A stretch of DNA of 20,901 nt from an uncultured virus (IMG/VR IMGVR_UViG_3300032797_000730) (taxonomy: Duplodnaviria; Heunggongvirae; Uroviricota; Caudoviricetes), in the IMG/VR virus record IMGVR_UViG_3300032797_000730. One strand, 5' to 3'. This document shows, one piece after another, positions 9,521 to 20,901 of the stretch. The notes beneath the pieces are model-generated. The model was not told the origin of the DNA. It ran no database searches and saw only the letters and a list, made by a program, of their open reading frames with translations. The position numbers and the translations under genes were made by a program. The stretch's first letter is position 1. Each line of letters begins with the position of its first letter.

Positions 9521-10651
9521 CTACGCGGTGACTGGCACTGCATTGTCCAGCCGGACCATGTTGGCGAAGTCATCGACGCCTGGCGCGAATTTCAGCTCGA
9601 ACCTCGTGCGGGCAATGTGCGGGTCGTGGTCCACCCAGCTGTACTGGTAGAGGCCATTCCCGTCGTGGAACTGGTTGCAGCGGCTCGTGAACGTGAAGCC
9701 CAAGTCCGAGTTCGCCAGGAACACGAACTCGTACCCGTTTGCACGCATGAACCAGTACTTGTTGTCGTTGCCCCACTCGGCCGCCGCGTTGTCACCAAGG
9801 TTGTTTGGCGATCCCACGGTGCCGACGCTCGCCGCCTCCTCCTTGTACGTGTGGGCGGTTACCTTGAGGATCTTCATGCCGTTGTCGAGGCCAGCGTAGA
9901 ACGCCTGGAGCGTCCCGCCAGAGAGATCACGAACGTACTTGAGTCGCTCGATGATCACGCGGTGGTTCTTGAGCACCTTCGCCGTCTTGCCCCCGATGAT
10001 CATGTTATTCAAGGGCAAGTCTCCCATCCCTTCCTGGTGATCGATTGCATTGTCGATGTCCCGGAAGGGGTCCGAGTTGGTATAGTCGTTCCACGCGGCA
10101 CCGATCATGCCGTTCGCCGCGGCCGTGAGGTCGAAGTGGATCTGCCGGGTCGTCGACTGGTTGCTGAAGTTGCTGATCGCTACCGGGTTTCCCCAGAGGT
10201 AGTTCACGAGCTCCAGTTCCACCCGTCGCTCGATGGCTCTCGTGCACATCTGCGTGAGACGTTGCATGCGAACGTCGGTGCCGAAGTTGAACTGCGGCGT
10301 GAACTCCATGAGGAACTCCTCGGGCTCCATGATGAAGCCGATCTTGGTCAACCGGGTCCACCACATCTCCATGTCAGCACCGGTGCTCAGGTAGTCCTCG
10401 TTCCTGGCATACGGGCTATACATGTTGGAGATTGGTTGCGGATCGATGGTGAGCGGCCATCCAAAGCGACTAGCTCCACCACCAGGTGCGCGGATGCGCT
10501 TCATCACCGTGGAGAGCACGGGTTGCCATTTGGAGTCCCACATTCGCACCATCTCGACGAACGCGGGCGATAGCATGTTGATCGGGATCGTGGCGCCGTA
10601 AGTGAAGTTCGGCAGCTGGAGCCCGTTCACGTCATTCATGTTCCATGCCAT
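9521..10651 (-). CDS. Major capsid protein, HK97 fold (lambda gpE-like), about 376 aa
   Basis: WNDYTNSDPFRDID...NNMIIGGKTAKVLKNHRVIIERLKY matches the gpE-like MCP signature. GAGGTGA SD at 10660-10666 favours ATG 10651. Confidence 0.85.
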   Translation of the reverse strand: MAWNMNDVNGLQLPNFTYGATIPINMLSPAFVEMVRMWDSKWQPVLSTVMKRIRAPGGGASRFGWPLTIDPQPISNMYSPYARNEDYLSTGADMEMWWTRLTKIGFIMEPEEFLMEFTPQFNFGTDVRMQRLTQMCTRAIERRVELELVNYLWGNPVAISNFSNQSTTRQIHFDLTAAANGMIGAAWNDYTNSDPFRDIDNAIDHQEGMGDLPLNNMIIGGKTAKVLKNHRVIIERLKYVRDLSGGTLQAFYAGLDNGMKILKVTAHTYKEEAASVGTVGSPNNLGDNAAAEWGNDNKYWFMRANGYEFVFLANSDLGFTFTSRCNQFHDGNGLYQYSWVDHDPHIARTRFELKFAPGVDDFANMVRLDNAVPVTA

Positions 10652-10672
10652 TTTTTCATTCACCTCTTATGT

Positions 10673-12327: not shown

Positions 12328-12335
12328 TATTTAAA
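12328..12335 (-). promoter_or_regulatory. Archaeal-type TATA box (TTTAAATA) upstream of the protease/capsid genes
   Basis: Lies in the short AT-rich gap before the protease, 28 nt upstream of ATG 12299. Identical to the boxes at 19739-19746 and 20132-20139. Confidence 0.65.
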
Positions 12336-15925: not shown

Positions 15926-17340
15926 TTCGCAGCACCAGCTCCACCGAATGCCGCGGGCTCTGGCTTCTTGTTGAGGTCCATGAAGTCGGATTGCATCTTC
16001 TTGGCCATGGCCTCGTCCACGTCGGCGATGTTGTCCCAGATCTCGTGCATGATGGCACGGGGCTCGTTCACGTGCTTGAACACTACATTTTTCATGCCAA
16101 TCTCGATGGCTTTCATCATGTCGAGGATGGAGATTTGCTCCATGGGGGAGAACGAGAGATGAAGTTGCTGATGAGTTACTCCATGGATGCCGTTGAACGG
16201 GAGAAGGTTGTTGATGTAGAAGTCGGTCCAGGCCCTGCTGAACCTCGTGCGGAGGCCTATATTCGTGCGGAGCCAGCCCTGCTCCAGGATGCGAGAAACG
16301 GCCAGTTCGTTGCCTGCAGCGTCTCTCTGGCCCATGGAACCGCTCAACGCGTACATGGTTTGCTTGTCCAGCATGTTGATGAACCCTGGATATACCTCAG
16401 AGGAAGCTGCAGAGTTCTTGCCGAATTCTTCGACGTGGTTGTAACCGGCGGTGACCATGGAGCCGAAGTTACGCATGTGGAGGAGGGACATCAACAGGTC
16501 TTCTACTTGCTTGGCCATCTCGGTCGGGTCCTCGGGGAATATGGTTTTGGGGTCGCCGACGTAGCCAACCTTGAAGGGGGACCAGTAGCGGTCGGAATAC
16601 ATCTTCATGTACCACAAGATCCACTGCTTGTACAGCAGGCCGTCGAGGACGGTCGAGATGGGAGGACGCTCGTAGAACTCGAACTCCATGAGGAAGCGCG
16701 GGTCGTTCGGGATGACGATGTTTGTTGGAAGGGGCATGGCGGATGCCGGGACGGTGAACTGGGAGCCGATGCCAATAGGGGTGTTTTTCAAGGCATTGTA
16801 GAAGGCGTTTTGGGAGGCGTAGGTGCCAAACCTGGTGTAGGGCTTCTGCACGTAGCCTTCCCAGCCTTTCTTGTCATCGGCGCCTTTCTCTACGGTGAGG
16901 GGGTCGACCCTCGCCATGTCGATGCCGGACTGGGAGTCGTCGGTGTACAGCAGGCGCCAGATCGAGAAGGCCTGCGTGTTGTTGTCCGTGATCGAGCGGG
17001 TGAACACGTCGTCGATGGTCTGGCGGCCAACGTTGATCTGGTTGTTGAACGCCGTGATCGTGTCGATCACCTTGTTTCTCTGGGCGGTGTCGTCGCACAC
17101 GATCTTCATGCCGTTCCCGATGATCGTGTAGGCCGTGATCGAGGAGAACGAGACCGGCACGGGGTCCTTCCAGAAGAGGATGGCCCGGTTGTTTTTCGTG
17201 TCCTGGACAGCGTTGCGAAGCAGCTCGTAGATTGCCTGGTTCTCCGAGCCCATCTGGATGACGCGGTTAAGGATGTCGACCAGCATGGGGGCGGAGTAAG
17301 TGGTGGTGGGGTTGCGGTAGATTCTCGATTGGGAAAACAC
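15922..17340 (-). CDS. Portal protein (DUF935/Mu gp29-like), 472 aa
   Basis: Follows TerL. KQWILWYMKMYSDRYWSPFKVGY, FINMLDKQTMYALSG and INNLLPFN...LSF resemble Mu-type portal motifs. Confidence 0.82.
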   Translation of the reverse strand: MFSQSRIYRNPTTTYSAPMLVDILNRVIQMGSENQAIYELLRNAVQDTKNNRAILFWKDPVPVSFSSITAYTIIGNGMKIVCDDTAQRNKVIDTITAFNNQINVGRQTIDDVFTRSITDNNTQAFSIWRLLYTDDSQSGIDMARVDPLTVEKGADDKKGWEGYVQKPYTRFGTYASQNAFYNALKNTPIGIGSQFTVPASAMPLPTNIVIPNDPRFLMEFEFYERPPISTVLDGLLYKQWILWYMKMYSDRYWSPFKVGYVGDPKTIFPEDPTEMAKQVEDLLMSLLHMRNFGSMVTAGYNHVEEFGKNSAASSEVYPGFINMLDKQTMYALSGSMGQRDAAGNELAVSRILEQGWLRTNIGLRTRFSRAWTDFYINNLLPFNGIHGVTHQQLHLSFSPMEQISILDMMKAIEIGMKNVVFKHVNEPRAIMHEIWDNIADVDEAMAKKMQSDFMDLNKKPEPAAFGGAGAAK

Positions 17341-19131
17341 TCAAATCATCCTCGTTTGACATGGTATGAAGGGCTGCTGGCCGCACGCCACGTAGGCCAA
17401 GGCGTGGGCGATGACCCTGTCATCGTGATAGGCTTGGGTGCCGTATTTCAAGGTGCGGGTGATGCCGCTCTCGGTGACCTCGTAGCCGAAGTTCAACATC
17501 TCGTTCCAGAACTCGCCGATCTCGGGGATGGAGCGGGGAGGGATGGAAAGGTCGCGGCGCTTGGAATAGCCTTCTATGAGGTAGTTGATGAGGTCTATCT
17601 TGGAGCGAACGTCGAAGATGAAGCCTTTTCGGGGGGCGGCGAAATAGGAGCCGCCTACAACGCGGCCACCGGCGAACAGCTTCTTGGCAGCCTTGTTGGA
17701 GAAGATCGAGGCACGGGAACGCATGGCCTTTAAATCATGGAATATCTCGTCCACGATGGAATCGCCGACACCGGTGGCGTCAGGGACGATCCAGATGGGG
17801 TTATAGAGTGCAACGTATTCCAAAAACGTCTTGCGGATGTCGGAATAGTCGATGCCGCCGTATTGGCCTTTGATGGTGAACATGTGGTCGAAAATGATTT
17901 TTCCCGTCTTGTAGTCCTTGTGCATGATGCACAGGACCGAGTTGTCATGGACCTTGCCAAAGTCCATTCCGATGACGTAGTTAGTGACGGTGGGGTTGGG
18001 GCGGGCCGAGTTGTTGAGCAAGGGATCGGTGGCGTTGTTGAGGAGGGTCTCGGAGAAGACGTTCATGCCCTCCATGATGATCTCGCCAAGGATTTCCTGG
18101 CGGGCGAGAGGGGTGTTGCCTGCGATGTCGAGCTCGTGCTGGATCTCCTCGGGGGTTTTCCAGCTGCAGTGCCAGGGGTCGACGGGGACCACCGTGTACT
18201 CGCCGATGCCGTAGATCCAGTCGTGGCCGCTACACGAGGGGCACGAGGGGATGCCAGCGGGGATGTCGTAGGTCGTGAACTTGTGATACCAAGGCTTGAG
18301 AACTTCGGCATCCTGCTTTAATGATTGCTGGCAGTAGATGGGGCGGCCGCGCTCGTCATGGCCGATGACGTTTTTACAAACGAGAGGGCGGGTACGCATG
18401 GCGACGAAGTAATGGGAGGCCATCTCGCCACGGGAACCGAATGGCGTGGAGAGCATGATCCAGCGCTGGCCGACGCGGCGCATGCAATACAGGATGGCGC
18501 CGCCGATTATTTCATCGGCGATGCGGGATGCCTCGTCGACGAGCCCGAGATGGATTGGCTCGCCGCGGCAGGAATCGTTCGCGGGGTAGGCGGTGAGGTT
18601 GACCTTGCCACCGATCTTGTGGAGTTCCAGCTTGTTGGAATCTTCTACCATGTAGGCGAACGGGGAGTTGTCGATGAGGCGCTTGACTCGGGCCAAAAGG
18701 GACTTGGCGCGGTTCTCGTTGATGGACCAGGTAGCGATGTTGAAGGGACGGTCCATGAAAATGAAGGCACAGGCGGCGGCACAAGCCACGCTCTCTGTTT
18801 TTCCGAACTGGCGAGGCCACATCATGACGACCTCGCGGGGGCGGATGGCCTCGGGGACGATCCAGGGGAACATGGAAATGTCGTAGCCGAACTGCACGGC
18901 GTTGATGGCTGACCTCTGGGCGGGTTCGAGGACGATGTTCTCGTCCCATTTCATGGGGTTGGGGAGGTGACGCTCGGCGAAGCGGGACCAGGAATACGCG
19001 GAGAGCTGCCATCGACGGTACTCATCAACGTCTTTCTGGGGGTCGATGCCGAGCGTGTTGAAGTATTCGGTGACGAACGACGTGTCCACGCCAGCACTGA
19101 GGCCAGCGGAGGAGAATTGAACGCTGGTCAC
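17341..19131 (-). CDS. terL: Terminase large subunit, 596 aa
   Basis: Walker A WPRQFGKT, Walker B LGLVDEA, motif III MLSTP. RNase H-like nuclease motifs IGMDFGKVHD, DATGVG and HDDRVIAHALA. Confidence 0.95.
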   Translation of the reverse strand: MTSVQFSSAGLSAGVDTSFVTEYFNTLGIDPQKDVDEYRRWQLSAYSWSRFAERHLPNPMKWDENIVLEPAQRSAINAVQFGYDISMFPWIVPEAIRPREVVMMWPRQFGKTESVACAAACAFIFMDRPFNIATWSINENRAKSLLARVKRLIDNSPFAYMVEDSNKLELHKIGGKVNLTAYPANDSCRGEPIHLGLVDEASRIADEIIGGAILYCMRRVGQRWIMLSTPFGSRGEMASHYFVAMRTRPLVCKNVIGHDERGRPIYCQQSLKQDAEVLKPWYHKFTTYDIPAGIPSCPSCSGHDWIYGIGEYTVVPVDPWHCSWKTPEEIQHELDIAGNTPLARQEILGEIIMEGMNVFSETLLNNATDPLLNNSARPNPTVTNYVIGMDFGKVHDNSVLCIMHKDYKTGKIIFDHMFTIKGQYGGIDYSDIRKTFLEYVALYNPIWIVPDATGVGDSIVDEIFHDLKAMRSRASIFSNKAAKKLFAGGRVVGGSYFAAPRKGFIFDVRSKIDLINYLIEGYSKRRDLSIPPRSIPEIGEFWNEMLNFGYEVTESGITRTLKYGTQAYHDDRVIAHALAYVACGQQPFIPCQTRMI

Positions 19132-19691
19132 AGGTTCACCACCTTGGGTTTCTTCGCCAGGAGCTCGTACTGCTCCAGTTCCTTTATCATGGCGATCTTG
19201 AACTCGTCCTTGAGCTCGGAGGAGGAGGCGATCACGGCAGCGGCAACGTCCATCTTCTTGAGCTGGACCTTGTCCTGGAAGCCAGAGGTGGACTTGTGGA
19301 GCTCGACGAGGAGCGTGCGGGCCTCTTTCATCCAGGTGGGCAGGCTATGGGGGATCTTGCTTTTCTCGTTCCATTCGATGATGAGGTTGGCGATCACGTT
19401 TTTAGTGATGAGGTAGAGCGACTGCATCTCGGCCATGGTGTCGATGGGCATCGAGGAAGCGATCTCGATGGAGATGGGGTGCATGACTATCTTCTGGGAC
19501 TCGGCCGAGGCGGCTTGGATTGCGGTTCCCTGGGGTGATGGAGGGTCGTTTTGAGAATTGAGGACGGCCCGCTTGGCGGCAGCGAGCAACTTGTCGGCCT
19601 TGGCCTTGTCGCCCTTGCGCCACTGATCGGCCCACTGGGCGAACTCGGCGAGCGAAACGTTCTTCGGGGCACCGGGATCGTCGTCGCTCAT
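19128..19691 (-). CDS. Putative terminase small subunit, about 187 aa
   Basis: Helical protein coupled to terL (GTGA overlap). Likely start ATG 19691 downstream of a TATA box. The call is positional only. Confidence 0.5.
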   Translation of the reverse strand: MSDDDPGAPKNVSLAEFAQWADQWRKGDKAKADKLLAAAKRAVLNSQNDPPSPQGTAIQAASAESQKIVMHPISIEIASSMPIDTMAEMQSLYLITKNVIANLIIEWNEKSKIPHSLPTWMKEARTLLVELHKSTSGFQDKVQLKKMDVAAAVIASSSELKDEFKIAMIKELEQYELLAKKPKVVNL

Positions 19692-19738
19692 GGGCCGCCA
19701 CTTCGAGCGTTCATCGAGGGACAGGGGCGGCTGCAGGC

Positions 19739-19746
19739 TATTTAAA
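19739..19746 (-). promoter_or_regulatory. Archaeal-type TATA box (TTTAAATA) heading the terminase operon
   Basis: Reads TTTAAATA on the minus strand, 47 nt upstream of ATG 19691. Confidence 0.65.
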
Positions 19747-19793
19747 TGTTGGCGGGGGGCAGGGGAAAATGGAAGTGGCAACAAATTTTAACA

Positions 19794-19906
19794 CGAGGTA
19801 CAGCGGGGGATGGCACCTCAAATTGTTGGAAGGGCGATTTCAAGGAAAAATAACGAGGTAAATTAATTTTTGGAGAATGGGGGGAATACCGCGAAGCGGC
19901 GAGGTA
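19794..19906. repeat. Three direct CGAGGTA repeats in an A/T-tract and G-run-rich spacer
   Basis: Exact copies at 19794-19800, 19854-19860 and 19900-19906. Confidence 0.55.
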
Positions 19907-20131
19907 CATCTACATGTGGTACCTTAAAAGTTTTCAAGGGGGGAAACACGAATTAAAAACGAGAGCAAGTTGACTCGGCATCTGCCCACGTCCTCAAAAC
20001 CGAAAGAATTACTCTTCTTAAAATTAATCCCCACGCCTTGTCGGCTTATCCCTTTTGTTAAAATCAAGCGATACTCATTATCTTTGAGTTGTTGTTATAT
20101 CTTCTTGTTATCATCTATCTCGTGCGCTATC

Positions 20132-20139
20132 TTTAAATA
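20132..20139 (+). promoter_or_regulatory. Divergent archaeal-type TATA box (TTTAAATA)
   Basis: Same octamer as the two operon promoters but on the plus strand. Predicts a transcription start near 20163-20166. Confidence 0.55.
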
Positions 20140-20163
20140 GCAAACGAGCGTGTTTGTGATCGA

Positions 20164-20901
20164 TAACAATGCAGACAACAACCTCTGTGGCGCATGAACG
20201 CATACGACATTACTTGTTATGTCGTATCGACGAATTGCAGCACGTTGTTGGTGCATTGTCATTAATCCGATATGCAATAGATGAGATGCGCCGGGCTTGT
20301 CCCGTGTACAGAAAATACGCATTGATTCAACATTACCTTATATCTCGCGTGAGGCTTGTGCGGGTAGTGCAATAGGTCTATTGCATGCGTGAGGATCAGC
20401 GGCGAGGAACCTAGTGTCCTAGTGATGCACTAACCACTATGTTCCGCATCGTGTGTACGCTTGCGAGCATGATGCGGTGGATTTAGGTGCAGATGAGGGA
20501 CGGACACTACCAAGCCGCACTGCGTATAATGGAGCATACGCATTCTCCAGTGTCGCGGAGCTCGTGCGATGCATGCTCGTATAACGTTGGAAGTGAGGGC
20601 GTCACCCGAACCAACGTCATGCTGCATGGCGAGACATCGTTCGATGCATCACGCCTTGGAGACAACCCAGTGCTCCTACGTCTTTGTTTTTTTTTGATCA
20701 TTAGGTGCTTCTCACTTAGAGTAAAACACGTGATCATAATGCTCAAACGCATGAACCAATATCGTCGCTTTGAACCCGAAGATCGATATGCACATAGCCC
20801 ATGTGTGCATCATAATCGCGGACCCTCTGGCCGATGTGTCTACTGCGGTGCTGAAGTCGGCACCCCTAACTACGCGTCAAGCGGTAACAGAAACCGCAGC
20901 C
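20164..20901 (+). ncRNA. Candidate large structured non-coding RNA (family not recognised; may extend past the window)
   Basis: No convincing ORF. Dense nested inverted repeats, including a rod at 20399-20518 and hairpins at 20202-20227, 20584-20617, 20788-20810, 20847-20864 and 20881-20897. G-U pairs favour the plus strand. Upstream TATA box. Confidence 0.55.
20169..20375 (+). CDS. Possible leaderless 68-aa ORF (doubtful)
   Basis: ATG 29 nt after the plus-strand TATA box. However, codon usage is unlike the GC3-rich viral genes and the sequence is itself hairpin-rich. Confidence 0.22.
   Translation: MQTTTSVAHERIRHYLLCRIDELQHVVGALSLIRYAIDEMRRACPVYRKYALIQHYLISRVRLVRVVQ

What the first reader, a model, noticed from the sequence alone, without database searches (positions are those of the whole stretch)
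20164..20901. Candidate large structured ncRNA transcribed divergently from the terminase operon
Seen: about 740 nt without a credible gene, downstream of a plus-strand TTTAAATA and filled with stems. These include ATACGACAT/ATGTCGTAT (20202-20227), a nested rod (20399-20518), TGCGTAT/ATACGCA (20521-20542), ACGTTGG/CCAACGT (20584-20617), CATCG/CGATG (20635-20646), ATATCG/CGATAT (20759-20789), ATGCACA/TGTGCAT (20788-20810), GGTGCTG/CGGCACC (20847-20864) and GCGGT/ACCGC (20881-20897). A long-range pairing CATGCGT (20384-20390)/ACGCATG (20747-20753) is also possible. Stem imperfections are G-U on the plus strand. Known: phages encode large ornate RNAs (GOLLD, ROOL) and phi29 a packaging RNA, but I recognise none of these here. 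Inference: a possibly undescribed viral RNA, perhaps linked to packaging or to the basic 735-aa protein.
Basis: partly seen in the sequence, partly recalled or inferred. Interest (0 to 1): 0.85.

Follow-up and report, generated by a model that had tools for sequence, protein, structure and literature searches.

The report
Conserved folded RNA beside terminase genes
Next to the packaging genes of an uncultured virus lies a roughly 530-base non-coding stretch whose central 300 bases keep the same base-pairing in a distant relative, so it is probably an undescribed folded RNA, most likely a regulatory leader, although only two copies are known and its last 160 bases are in fact a gene.

Summary
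Positions 20739-20901 encode the start of a ~108-aa CxHH...CxxC protein with a 74%-identical homologue. The remainder (20164-20697) folds no better than coding DNA of the same window: z -2.1 against a control mean of -1.5, sd 1.26. The real support is comparative. One relative (L009; terL about 75% identical) has an alignable copy, and its substitutions preserve pairing. RNAalifold z is -5.3 against column shuffles and -3.7 to -4.7 against a substitution-permutation null. Ten coding controls gave +0.6 to -2.9 and the adjacent intergenic control +0.4/-1.3. The signal sits in two domains, 20269-20386 and 20387-20568: 41 pairs, 12 changed on both sides. No Rfam family matches and no conserved ORF exists. 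The unit starts after a TTTAAATA box and ends in a weak hairpin plus T9. Three other lineages carry unrelated non-coding sequence at this spot, and all 8 contigs end here. Best reading: a new structured leader or ncRNA. Its function, strand and transcription are unproven.

The parts
19739..19746 (-). TTTAAATA box on the terS/terL side. It is one arm of the perfect inverted pair GCTATTTAAA/TTTAAATAGC and is the presumed late-operon promoter element.
   Evidence: 3 copies in the window against 0.04 expected. TTTAWATA-like boxes sit at the same place in L004, L008 and L009.
19795..19924 (.). Two palindromic boxes GAGGYAC-N9-12-GGYACCT (19795-19818 and 19901-19924) in the divergent intergenic region. 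They are probably binding sites for a dimeric DNA-binding protein. This is context, not part of the RNA.
   Evidence: 2 found, 0 expected. There are two copies in every relative that covers the spot.
20132..20139 (+). TTTAAATA box, the presumed promoter element of the non-coding unit.
   Evidence: L008 has TTTAAATA and L009 has TTTATATC at the aligned place. No sigma-70-type site is found here.
20160..20268 (+). 5' segment of the unit. It is poorly conserved and contains the perfect 9-bp hairpin 20202-20227. Most of the non-conserved 68-codon ORF (20169-20375) lies here.
   Evidence: block z -1.2/-0.3, not significant. ORF68 has no homologue and no third-position bias: mismatches 28/57, 23/56, 24/57 by codon position.
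20269..20386 (+). 5' domain. H1 is 20272-20280/20378-20386, H2 is 20285-20290/20318-20323, H3 is 20292-20295/20301-04. The window carries about 36 nt that L009 lacks.
   Evidence: H1 has 9 pairs (3 changed on both sides, 2 on one side); H3 has 1 changed on both sides. Block z is -3.7 (column shuffle, 0/60) and -2.6 (substitution permutation, 1/60).
20387..20568 (+). 3' domain. The closing helix H4 is 20387-20393/20561-20567, H9 is 20399-20402/20515-20518, hairpin H5 is 20521-20527/20536-20542, hairpin H6 is 20545-20548/20557-20560. The invariant, predicted-unpaired 14-mer CTAACCACTATGTT lies at 20430-20443.
   Evidence: pairs changed on both sides are H5 4, H4 2, H9 1, H6 1. Block z is -4.8 and -3.7 (0/60 each). 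The 14-mer is identical in L009.
20569..20656 (+). Variable linker plus the conserved hairpin H7 (20629-20638/20643-20654).
   Evidence: The block as a whole is not significant (z -1.3/-1.9).
20657..20695 (+). Weak hairpin (TGGAGAC 20657-20663 / GTCTTTG 20680-20686; 7 pairs, 3 of them G-U; 16-nt loop) followed directly by T9 (20687-20695). This is the presumed terminator or attenuator.
   Evidence: It is conserved in L009, whose contig ends inside the T run. The canonical terminator scan does not call it. Its fold is no better than shuffles.
20739..20901 (+). Protein-coding: the first 54 codons of a ~108-aa CxHH...CxxC (zinc-ribbon-like) protein. GTGATC lies 3 nt before the ATG. The gene is cut by the window end.
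   Evidence: P0001: 74% identity, E 4e-19. No Pfam or PHROG family matches.

Best explanation
Positions ~20160-20695 are a non-coding unit read on the + strand, from the TTTAAATA box (20132-20139) to a weak hairpin plus U9 (20657-20695). Its central ~300 nt (20269-20568) fold into two conserved domains. The 5' domain is closed by a 9-bp long-range helix. The 3' domain is closed by a 7-bp long-range helix and holds a rod, two hairpins and an invariant unpaired 14-mer.

The most likely role is a long structured 5' leader of the operon that runs away from terS/terL. The first gene of that operon, a small zinc-ribbon-like protein, starts 44 nt after the U run. The hairpin-U9 would stop most transcripts, and a factor or condition acting on the folded core would decide read-through (attenuation or antitermination).

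Shown: conserved pairing with compensatory changes, absence of a conserved ORF, the order of motifs, and that the downstream ORF is real.
Inferred: transcription, strand, 5' and 3' ends, and the regulatory mechanism.
For: (1) Conserved structure. RNAalifold on window 20160-20697 against L009 gives -70.3 kcal/mol.
- Column shuffles average -46.5 (z -5.3, 0 of 100 reach it).
- When L009's substitutions are permuted and the structure re-optimised, z is -3.7 to -4.7 (0 of 60 in each of 4 runs).
- Controls: 10 coding blocks of the same pair give z +0.63 to -2.94. The adjacent intergenic region gives +0.4/-1.3.

(2) Seven helices hold 41 pairs. All 82 of 82 cells are paired, 12 pairs changed on both sides and 5 on one side. 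With partners slid by 1-3 columns, only 26-54% of cells pair and 0-2 pairs show double changes. Two of the helices are long-range, with arms 97 and 167 nt apart. Palindromic protein sites cannot explain that.

(3) It is not coding.
- ORF68 has no homologue.
- Mismatches are 28/57, 23/56 and 24/57 by codon position. In the best-conserved block the nucleotides are more conserved than the peptide.
- Conserved blocks change relative frame.
- L009's 149-aa ORF has no homologue.

(4) Orientation.
- The TTTAAATA-type box is conserved upstream.
- The hairpin and T run are conserved downstream.
- The next gene is on the same strand, and no TTTAWATA-like box (up to 1 mismatch) lies anywhere in 20140-20901.
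- The MFE is lower on this strand in 5 of 5 lineages.
- 8 wobble cells in the seven helices would be A-C mismatches on the other strand.

(5) In lineage c (L008) the same promoter box is followed by ~680 nt without an ORF, and this runs straight into two small genes with GGTGA ribosome sites. That is the layout of a long leader.
Against: - Only two sequences carry the element, so covariation rests on one pairwise comparison and cannot be tested with R-scape-type statistics.
- Single-sequence stability is no better than coding background.
- The reverse strand gives an equally good consensus energy (-70.6, z -5.4), and wobble counts of the two strand-specific optima are alike (29 against 31). 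Structure alone does not fix the strand.
- No transcription data exist.
- The hairpin before the T run is weak and was not called as a terminator.
- The covariance model of the 3' domain finds nothing in the other lineages or in 100 of the 110 unrelated viral loci that share the 14-mer.
- No antiterminator or ligand is identified.
Confidence: 0.4

Rival explanations
1. A stand-alone, trans-acting non-coding RNA of about 530 nt. It would be made from the TTTAAATA promoter and ended at the U9. It would act on a host or viral target (a decoy, scaffold or antisense RNA) through its invariant unpaired 14-mer. The slot is swapped between strains because the target is under an arms race.
For: - The structural evidence is the same as for the best explanation.
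- The T run is conserved in L009. From recalled knowledge, oligo-T alone terminates archaeal transcription, and the TTTAWATA boxes look archaeal.
- The 14-mer CTAACCACTATGTT is invariant in a region that is ~50% identical and is predicted unpaired.
- Near-identical phages L004 and L007 carry unrelated sequence from ~70 nt after the presumed start.
Against: - No complementary target for the 14-mer is in the window. There are 2 matches at up to 3 mismatches, one being the motif itself, and 17 of 100 shuffles do as well.
- The downstream gene has no promoter box of its own.
- L008 has no T run before its first ORF.
- The host domain is unresolved.
Confidence: 0.25
2. There is no functional RNA. 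The apparent conserved pairing is a by-product of a two-sequence comparison in a fast-evolving spacer, or of alignment choice. The region is simply the variable spacer between two modules.
For: - There are only two sequences.
- Single-sequence z-scores are ordinary.
- Both strands score alike.
- Other lineages carry unrelated sequence.
- Pairwise shuffle tests are known, from recalled experience with RNAz-type screens, to give false positives.
Against: - Two different nulls and 12 control values (10 coding, 2 intergenic) never come near the observed z.
- 12 of 41 pairs changed on both sides while all cells stay paired.
- Blocks of 75% identity and an invariant 14-mer within a region that is otherwise ~50% identical argue for constraint.
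Confidence: 0.15
3. A DNA-level element rather than an RNA: an origin of replication, a packaging/terminus region or a recombination hot spot whose single strands fold.
For: - All 8 contigs of this virus group end 621-2778 nt upstream of terL, whatever their length.
- The region lies beside terS.
- G+C drops to 44%.
- Both strands give equal consensus energies.
Against: - The contig ends fall at different, non-homologous positions. The identical contigs L005, L006 and L008 end at 1364, 1385 and 2778 nt, so there is no fixed physical end.
- The covarying helices contain G-U type pairs (8 of 82 cells). From recalled knowledge, these stabilise RNA far better than DNA.
- No direct-repeat (iteron-like) family with more than two copies was found in 19600-20901.
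Confidence: 0.08
4. The stretch encodes one or more small proteins. One candidate is the 68-codon ORF 20169-20375, which starts 29 nt after the TTTAAATA box and could be translated from a leaderless mRNA.
For: - An ATG-started ORF begins 13-29 nt after the box in three lineages: 68 aa in the window, the last 86 codons of a 149-aa open frame in L009, and 42 aa in L008.
- The box at 12335 stands 28 nt before a real gene start.
- A 17-aa stretch is 53% identical between the window and L009.
Against: - Neither ORF has a homologue in the 5.8-billion-protein collection, whereas the neighbouring 54-aa fragment found one at once.
- There is no third-position excess of substitutions.
- No Pfam or PHROG family matches any of the ORFs tried.
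- The three ORFs are unrelated in sequence, and their lengths are what chance gives (own estimate from stop-codon frequency).
Confidence: 0.07

Closest known systems
GOLLD and ROOL large ornate RNAs of phages and prophages (seen: search listing and abstract of PMC12286853 and PMC5737381)
   Same: A several-hundred-nucleotide, multi-helix, ORF-free element carried by a virus of microbes, recognised by comparative analysis, with unknown function.
   Different: - No match to any Rfam 15 model, even at E up to 10. That GOLLD and ROOL are in that library is recalled, not checked.
- The conserved core is only ~300 nt.
- No tRNA genes are nearby (0 in the window).
- Only two copies are known.
Lambda PR' leader ('6S' RNA) with terminator tR' and Q antitermination (recalled knowledge)
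   Same: The order is promoter, then non-coding RNA, then terminator, then genes that need read-through.
   Different: - The leader here is about three times longer and has a conserved fold.
- The controlled operon is the one opposite to the terminase/structural genes.
- No antiterminator is identified.
- The terminator hairpin is weak.
Immunity RNAs embedded in operon leaders: P1/P7 c4 and P4 CI RNA (recalled knowledge)
   Same: A non-coding RNA lies just after an early promoter. Close relatives differ sharply at exactly this spot, as L004 and L007 do.
   Different: - Those RNAs are ~70-80 nt, are processed, and have antisense targets in the same transcript.
- No target for the invariant 14-mer was found here.
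- The relative G001 looks like a large virulent-type genome with its own PolB. No integrase or repressor family appeared among the 55 G001 ORFs scanned.
phi29 packaging RNA (pRNA) (recalled knowledge)
   Same: A phage non-coding RNA placed near the packaging genes or a genome end.
   Different: - No Rfam match.
- This virus has a terS-like/terL terminase pair, not the phi29-type packaging system.
- Nothing ties the element to packaging.

Membership tests
Any described RNA family (Rfam 15, 4227 models; by recollection these include GOLLD, ROOL, HEARO, OLE, pRNA, group I/II introns and riboswitches) | Match to the family's covariance model at its gathering score | tested here: not met
   - 0 matches at gathering score in the whole window.
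- In 19000-20901 at E up to 10 there are only 3 chance-level hits, 13-16 bits against cut-offs of 36-45.
- In the four relatives' loci, 1 chance hit at E up to 1.
Structured non-coding RNA (generic criteria) | Base pairs kept through compensatory changes in homologues, beyond controls | tested here: met
   - z -5.3 (column shuffle) and -3.7 to -4.7 (substitution permutation). Coding and intergenic controls range from +0.6 to -2.9.
- 12 of 41 pairs changed on both sides and 82 of 82 cells are paired.
- Caveat: only two sequences.
Structured non-coding RNA (generic criteria) | Folding energy lower than shuffles and than the genomic background | tested here: not met
   z is -2.1 (+) against a coding background mean of -1.5, sd 1.26. 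Sliding windows run from -1.5 to +1.3. The homologue L009 gives z -0.5.
Structured non-coding RNA (generic criteria) | The element is transcribed, with defined ends and strand | not testable with these tools
   No sequencing run could be listed for the stretch, so there is no transcript evidence either way.
Protein-coding gene (ORF 20169-20375) | Homologues exist and substitutions are concentrated at third codon positions | tested here: not met
   No homologue. Mismatches against L009 are 28/57, 23/56 and 24/57 at codon positions 1, 2 and 3.
Protein-coding gene (ORF 20739-20901) | A significant protein homologue covers the ORF | tested here: met
   P0001 is 108 aa, 74% identical over 98% of the 54 residues, E 4.3e-19.
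Bacterial intrinsic terminator | G+C-rich stem, loop of 3-8 nt, then a U run | tested here: not met
   - The scan finds 0 sites in 19600-20901.
- The T9 at 20687-20695 follows a 7-pair stem with 3 G-U pairs and a 16-nt loop.
- Local fold z is -0.9.
Sigma-70 promoter at 20132 | -35 and -10 hexamers with a 16-18 nt spacer | tested here: not met
   The scan finds 2 sites in the region (1.9 expected), and neither is near 20132 or 19746.
Archaeal TATA-box promoter (consensus TTTAWATA, recalled) | A TATA box about 25 nt upstream of the transcription start | tested here: inconclusive
   - Exact TTTAAATA occurs 3 times against 0.04 expected, each time before a gene start or the unit.
- It is conserved in relatives.
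- Transcription starts are not known and the host domain is unresolved.
phi29-type packaging RNA | Belongs to a phage with phi29-type packaging and matches the pRNA model | tested here: not met
   No Rfam match. The virus has a terL (phrog_2, E 1.3e-24) and a terS-like gene. The pRNA biology is recalled.

The most novel reading that the evidence does not exclude
The slot right after a conserved promoter beside terS is a strain-variable 'RNA cassette' site. Different lineages of one virus group, even 96%-identical ones, carry unrelated 400-700-nt non-coding RNAs there. The window's version is an undescribed two-domain structured RNA, possibly of an archaeal virus. It would act in trans through its invariant 14-nt loop as an immunity or counter-defence RNA. 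This would be a hypervariable non-coding RNA locus analogous to protein anti-defence islands.
Probability: 0.15. Interest if true: 0.75.

Novelty: new variant of a known kind. Interest (0 to 1): 0.45.

Why it matters
Few large structured RNAs are known from viruses of microbes, and almost none from uncultured, possibly archaeal, lineages. Here a ~300-nt fold is kept across a divergence at which the flanking spacer has lost all similarity. It therefore marks a real constraint at the boundary between the structural module and a strain-variable module. If it is a regulatory leader, it points to an unknown read-through switch for the opposite operon. If it acts in trans, it would be a new viral RNA class at a site where near-identical strains swap unrelated sequences. 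The case also shows that stem counting and single-sequence z-scores were uninformative, and that only the comparison with a relative carried weight.

Tried and rejected
- Rfam on the window and on four relatives' loci: nothing. tRNA/tmRNA scan: 0.
- No whole genome is held for the window.
- GenBank phages: no DNA match to 19700-20901 and no tblastn match to terL.
- Viral-contig scans:
  - A 33-nt hairpin string gave 0 hits.
  - The 14-mer gave 110 stretches. The loci then held (L012-L121) were screened by blastn and gave only two 19-nt matches. 100 of them (L012-L111) were scanned with model R1, giving 2 hits at E 0.44 and 0.76.
  - Two degenerate motifs from the conserved blocks gave 0 hits each.
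  - terL gave only the 70,984-nt contig. The Zn-ribbon alignment gave 0.
- Genome-contig scans: terL gave 0 relatives. The Zn-ribbon alignment gave 2 weak, probably spurious, loci.
- Covariance model R1 of the 3' domain found only its two source sequences, with default filters and with filters off. A model of the 5' domain was not built because MAFFT misaligned the 3' arm of H1 in the short sub-alignment.
- Sequencing runs: none was listed, and no RNA holder was listed.
- Strand call by G-U against A-C counts: indecisive.
- Target search for the 14-mer in the window: chance level.
- Zn-ribbon protein:
  - No Pfam or PHROG family.
  - In the representative library the only other hit is a repetitive 658-aa protein.
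  - The AlphaFold model has mean pLDDT 49.5, so no fold search was run.
- Host:
  - Atlas look-ups gave viral clusters, and 2 of 10 terL sets were labelled Bathyarchaeota.
  - Pfam on 55 ORFs of the relative G001 gave PolB, NrdD, ThyX, Dam, radical SAM, GT4 and baseplate J. None of these fixes the host.
- G001 has no homologue of the Zn-ribbon gene, of L008's two small genes, or of the distal non-coding sequences.
- Earlier-findings look-ups returned nothing relevant.
Full report
**Setting.** The window is a minus-strand structural operon of an uncultured tailed virus.
- terL lies at 17341-19131 (phrog_2, E 1.3e-24).
- A terS-like gene lies at 19131-19691. It is 53% identical to its counterpart in a relative.
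- A major head protein lies at 9521-10663.
- Cultured phages have no terL match, and no whole genome is held for the window.

The finding lies on the far side of a divergent intergenic region. That region is bounded by a perfect inverted pair, GCTATTTAAA (19737-19746) and TTTAAATAGC (20132-20141). Exact TTTAAATA occurs three times in the window against 0.04 expected.

**Checking the observation.** Two claims do not hold.

First, the last 160 nt are coding.
- The ORF from 20739 has GTGATC 3 nt upstream of its ATG.
- It is 74% identical over 54 residues to a 108-aa protein, P0001 (E 4.3e-19). Both share the motif PCVHHNRGPSGRCVYCG.
- Four of the stems, and the 3' arm of the proposed long-range pair, lie inside this gene.

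Second, the stems are not more than chance gives.
- The 738 nt fold at z -2.5 (+) and -2.2 (-).
- The non-coding part, 20164-20697, folds at z -2.1 (+) and -2.8 (-).
- 14 coding segments of the same length in the same window give mean -1.5, sd 1.26, range -4.4 to +1.0.
- Sliding 150-nt windows inside 20150-20749 give -1.5 to +1.3 on the + strand.
- The strongest local value, -3.95 at 20750-20899, is inside the gene.

**Known families.** No Rfam family matches the window at gathering score. At E up to 10 in 19000-20901 there are only three chance-level hits. The relatives' loci give nothing either. There are no tRNA or tmRNA genes.

**Relatives.** A terL-based scan of metagenome contigs confirmed 7 loci out of 97 pattern-matched stretches. 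One of them is the same 70,984-nt contig that the viral collection holds. By pairwise BLAST they form four lineages besides the window:
- L004, which is the same contig as L001 and L011.
- L007, which is 96% identical to L004 for 1033 nt upstream of terL and unrelated beyond about 1050 nt (relaxed blastn).
- L005, L006 and L008, which are identical to one another.
- L009 and L010, which are 97% identical to each other. L010 is too short to reach the region.

All lineages share the terS gene, the late-side TTTAWATA box and two palindromic boxes. Beyond the plus-side box, only L009 is alignable with the window. Identity is 75% over 20253-20333 and 59% over 20424-20692 (alignment A3). L004, L007 and L008 carry unrelated, ORF-poor sequence at the same place.

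In L008 the box TTTAAATA is followed by ~680 nt without an ORF above 50 codons starting downstream of the box. Two small genes with GGTGA ribosome sites follow.

**Is the window/L009 similarity coding?** The evidence says it is not.
- The 68-codon ORF 20169-20375 has no homologue.
- L009 has a 149-codon ORF over the region, which also has no homologue.
- The two ORFs share only a 17-residue stretch at 53% identity. That stretch lies in a block where the DNA is about 78% identical.
- Mismatches fall evenly on codon positions: 28/57, 23/56 and 24/57 overall, and 8/27, 5/26 and 5/27 in the conserved block.
- tblastx hits jump between frame pairs.
- None of the other small ORFs matches Pfam at a meaningful level.

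**Is structure conserved?** RNAalifold on window 20160-20697 against L009 1-508 (reverse strand) gives -70.3 kcal/mol with 93 pairs.

| Test | Result |
|---|---|
| Column shuffles keeping gap and identity classes, + strand | z -5.3, 0 of 100 reach the observed energy |
| Same test, - strand | z -5.4, 0 of 100 |
| Five coding blocks of the same genome pair, both strands | z +0.63 to -2.94 |
| Adjacent intergenic region 19692-20159 | z +0.4 / -1.3 |
| One sequence kept intact, the other's substitutions permuted among mismatch columns, structure re-optimised each time | z -3.7 to -4.7, 0 of 60 in each of four runs |

By block, with the column-shuffle z first and the substitution-permutation z second:
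- 20269-20386: -3.7 and -2.6.
- 20387-20568: -4.8 and -3.7.
- 20160-20268: -1.2 and -0.3, not significant.
- 20569-20697: -1.3 and -1.9, not significant.

I named seven helices from the consensus and counted them.
- They hold 41 pairs, and 82 of 82 cells are paired.
- 12 pairs changed on both sides and 5 on one side.
- With partners slid by 1-3 columns, only 26-54% of cells pair and 0-2 pairs show double changes.
- These helices were derived from the same two sequences, so the slid control is lenient. The re-optimising nulls above are the fair test.

The clearest cases are:
- H1: ATGCAATAG/CTATTGCAT in the window against GTGCGGTGG/CCATCGCGC in L009, with arms 97 and 63 nt apart.
- H5: TGCGTAT/ATACGCA against GAGGCAT/ATGCCTT.
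- H4: GCGTGAG/CTCGTGC against AAATGAG/CTCGTTT, with arms 167 nt apart.

Long-range helices with compensation cannot be explained by palindromic protein-binding sites.

**Strand and ends.** Structure alone does not decide the strand.
- Consensus energies are equal on the two strands.
- Each strand's optimum has about 30 wobble pairs.

Several points favour the + strand.
- The conserved box lies upstream.
- The hairpin plus T9 (20657-20695) is conserved in L009, whose contig stops inside the T run.
- The next gene is on the + strand, and no TTTAWATA-like box lies anywhere in 20140-20901.
- The MFE is lower on this strand in 5 of 5 lineages.
- 8 wobble cells in the seven helices would be mismatches on the other strand.

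The hairpin before the T run is weak. It has 3 G-U pairs among 7 and a 16-nt loop. It fails the terminator scan and folds no better than shuffles. No sigma-70-type site lies at either box.

From recalled knowledge, the boxes fit the archaeal TATA consensus, and oligo-T alone terminates archaeal transcription. The host domain is not settled: 2 of the 10 atlas terL sets listed are labelled Bathyarchaeota, and searches are uninformative on this.

**What it most likely is.** It is a non-coding + strand unit of ~530 nt with a conserved two-domain core of ~300 nt.

I favour a long structured leader of the divergent operon, with the hairpin-U9 as a conditional stop (0.40). The reasons are that the downstream gene lacks its own box and that lineage c has the leader layout without any stop.

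| Rival | Probability |
|---|---|
| Stand-alone trans-acting RNA using the invariant unpaired 14-mer (20430-20443) | 0.25 |
| No function, an artefact of a two-sequence comparison | 0.15 |
| DNA-level element | 0.08 |
| Small proteins | 0.07 |

**Context worth noting.** Every one of the 8 contigs of this group ends 621-2778 nt upstream of terL, at non-homologous positions. L004 and L007 switch from 96% identity to no similarity ~70 nt after the presumed start. This fits a strain-variable region that breaks assemblies better than a fixed genome end. The identical contigs L005, L006 and L008 end at 1364, 1385 and 2778 nt.

**Limits.**
- The contig that encodes P0001 could not be fetched.
- No sequencing run could be listed.
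- The literature was seen only as search listings and abstracts. No paper was read in full, and I make no claim that the element is absent from print beyond its absence from Rfam 15.

Noticed in passing
window 19795-19818 and 19901-19924; also L004, L005, L006, L007, L008, L009: Two copies per genome of the palindromic box GAGGYAC-N9-12-GGYACCT (usually followed by TAA) lie between the divergent TTTAAATA boxes. None is expected by chance. The boxes are kept in all four other lineages although the flanks have diverged. They are probably sites for a dimeric regulator of the terS/terL promoter.
   Followed up: partly
window end 20901; upstream ends of L004-L010: All 8 contigs of this virus group, 4 to 71 kb long, end 621-2778 nt upstream of terL at non-homologous positions. 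Three identical contigs end at 1364, 1385 and 2778 nt. This looks like an assembly-breaking strain-variable region rather than a fixed genome end.
   Followed up: partly
L004 about 480-512 against L007 about 370-403 (about 1033-1053 nt upstream of terL): Two contigs that are 96% identical across terS and the intergenic region become completely unrelated ~70 nt after the presumed start of the non-coding unit. This is a sharp recombination or cassette boundary.
   Followed up: partly
window 12328-12335 (-), 19739-19746 (-), 20132-20139 (+): Exact TTTAAATA occurs 3 times against 0.04 expected, each time just before a gene start or the non-coding unit. The copy at 12335 lies 28 nt before an ATG preceded by AGGTG. 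No sigma-70-type site is present at these places. The box fits the archaeal TATA consensus as I recall it. The host domain is unresolved.
   Followed up: partly
window 20750-20899, + strand: This is the strongest local folding signal of the region (z -3.95 on +, +1.35 on -; 30 shuffles). It lies inside the coding start of the zinc-ribbon-like gene. It could be mRNA structure, but no DNA homologue was available to test it.
   Followed up: no
window 20739-20901 and protein P0001: A small (~108 aa) protein with PCVHHNRGPSGRCVYCG and a helical C-terminal half. It has no Pfam or PHROG family and only one real homologue in two very large protein collections. The AlphaFold model was too poor to use (pLDDT 49.5).
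   Followed up: partly
G001 (70,984-nt relative; loci L124-L127): It encodes family B DNA polymerase, anaerobic ribonucleotide reductase NrdD, ThyX, Dam methylase, a radical SAM protein, two group-1 glycosyltransferases, an HNH endonuclease and baseplate J. This is a large virulent-type contractile-tail-like genome from an anaerobic setting. Its overall G+C is 51%, against ~58% in the window.
   Followed up: partly
window 20001-20500: G+C falls to 44% from 55-65% in the structural genes, and the GC skew changes sign near 16000.
   Followed up: no
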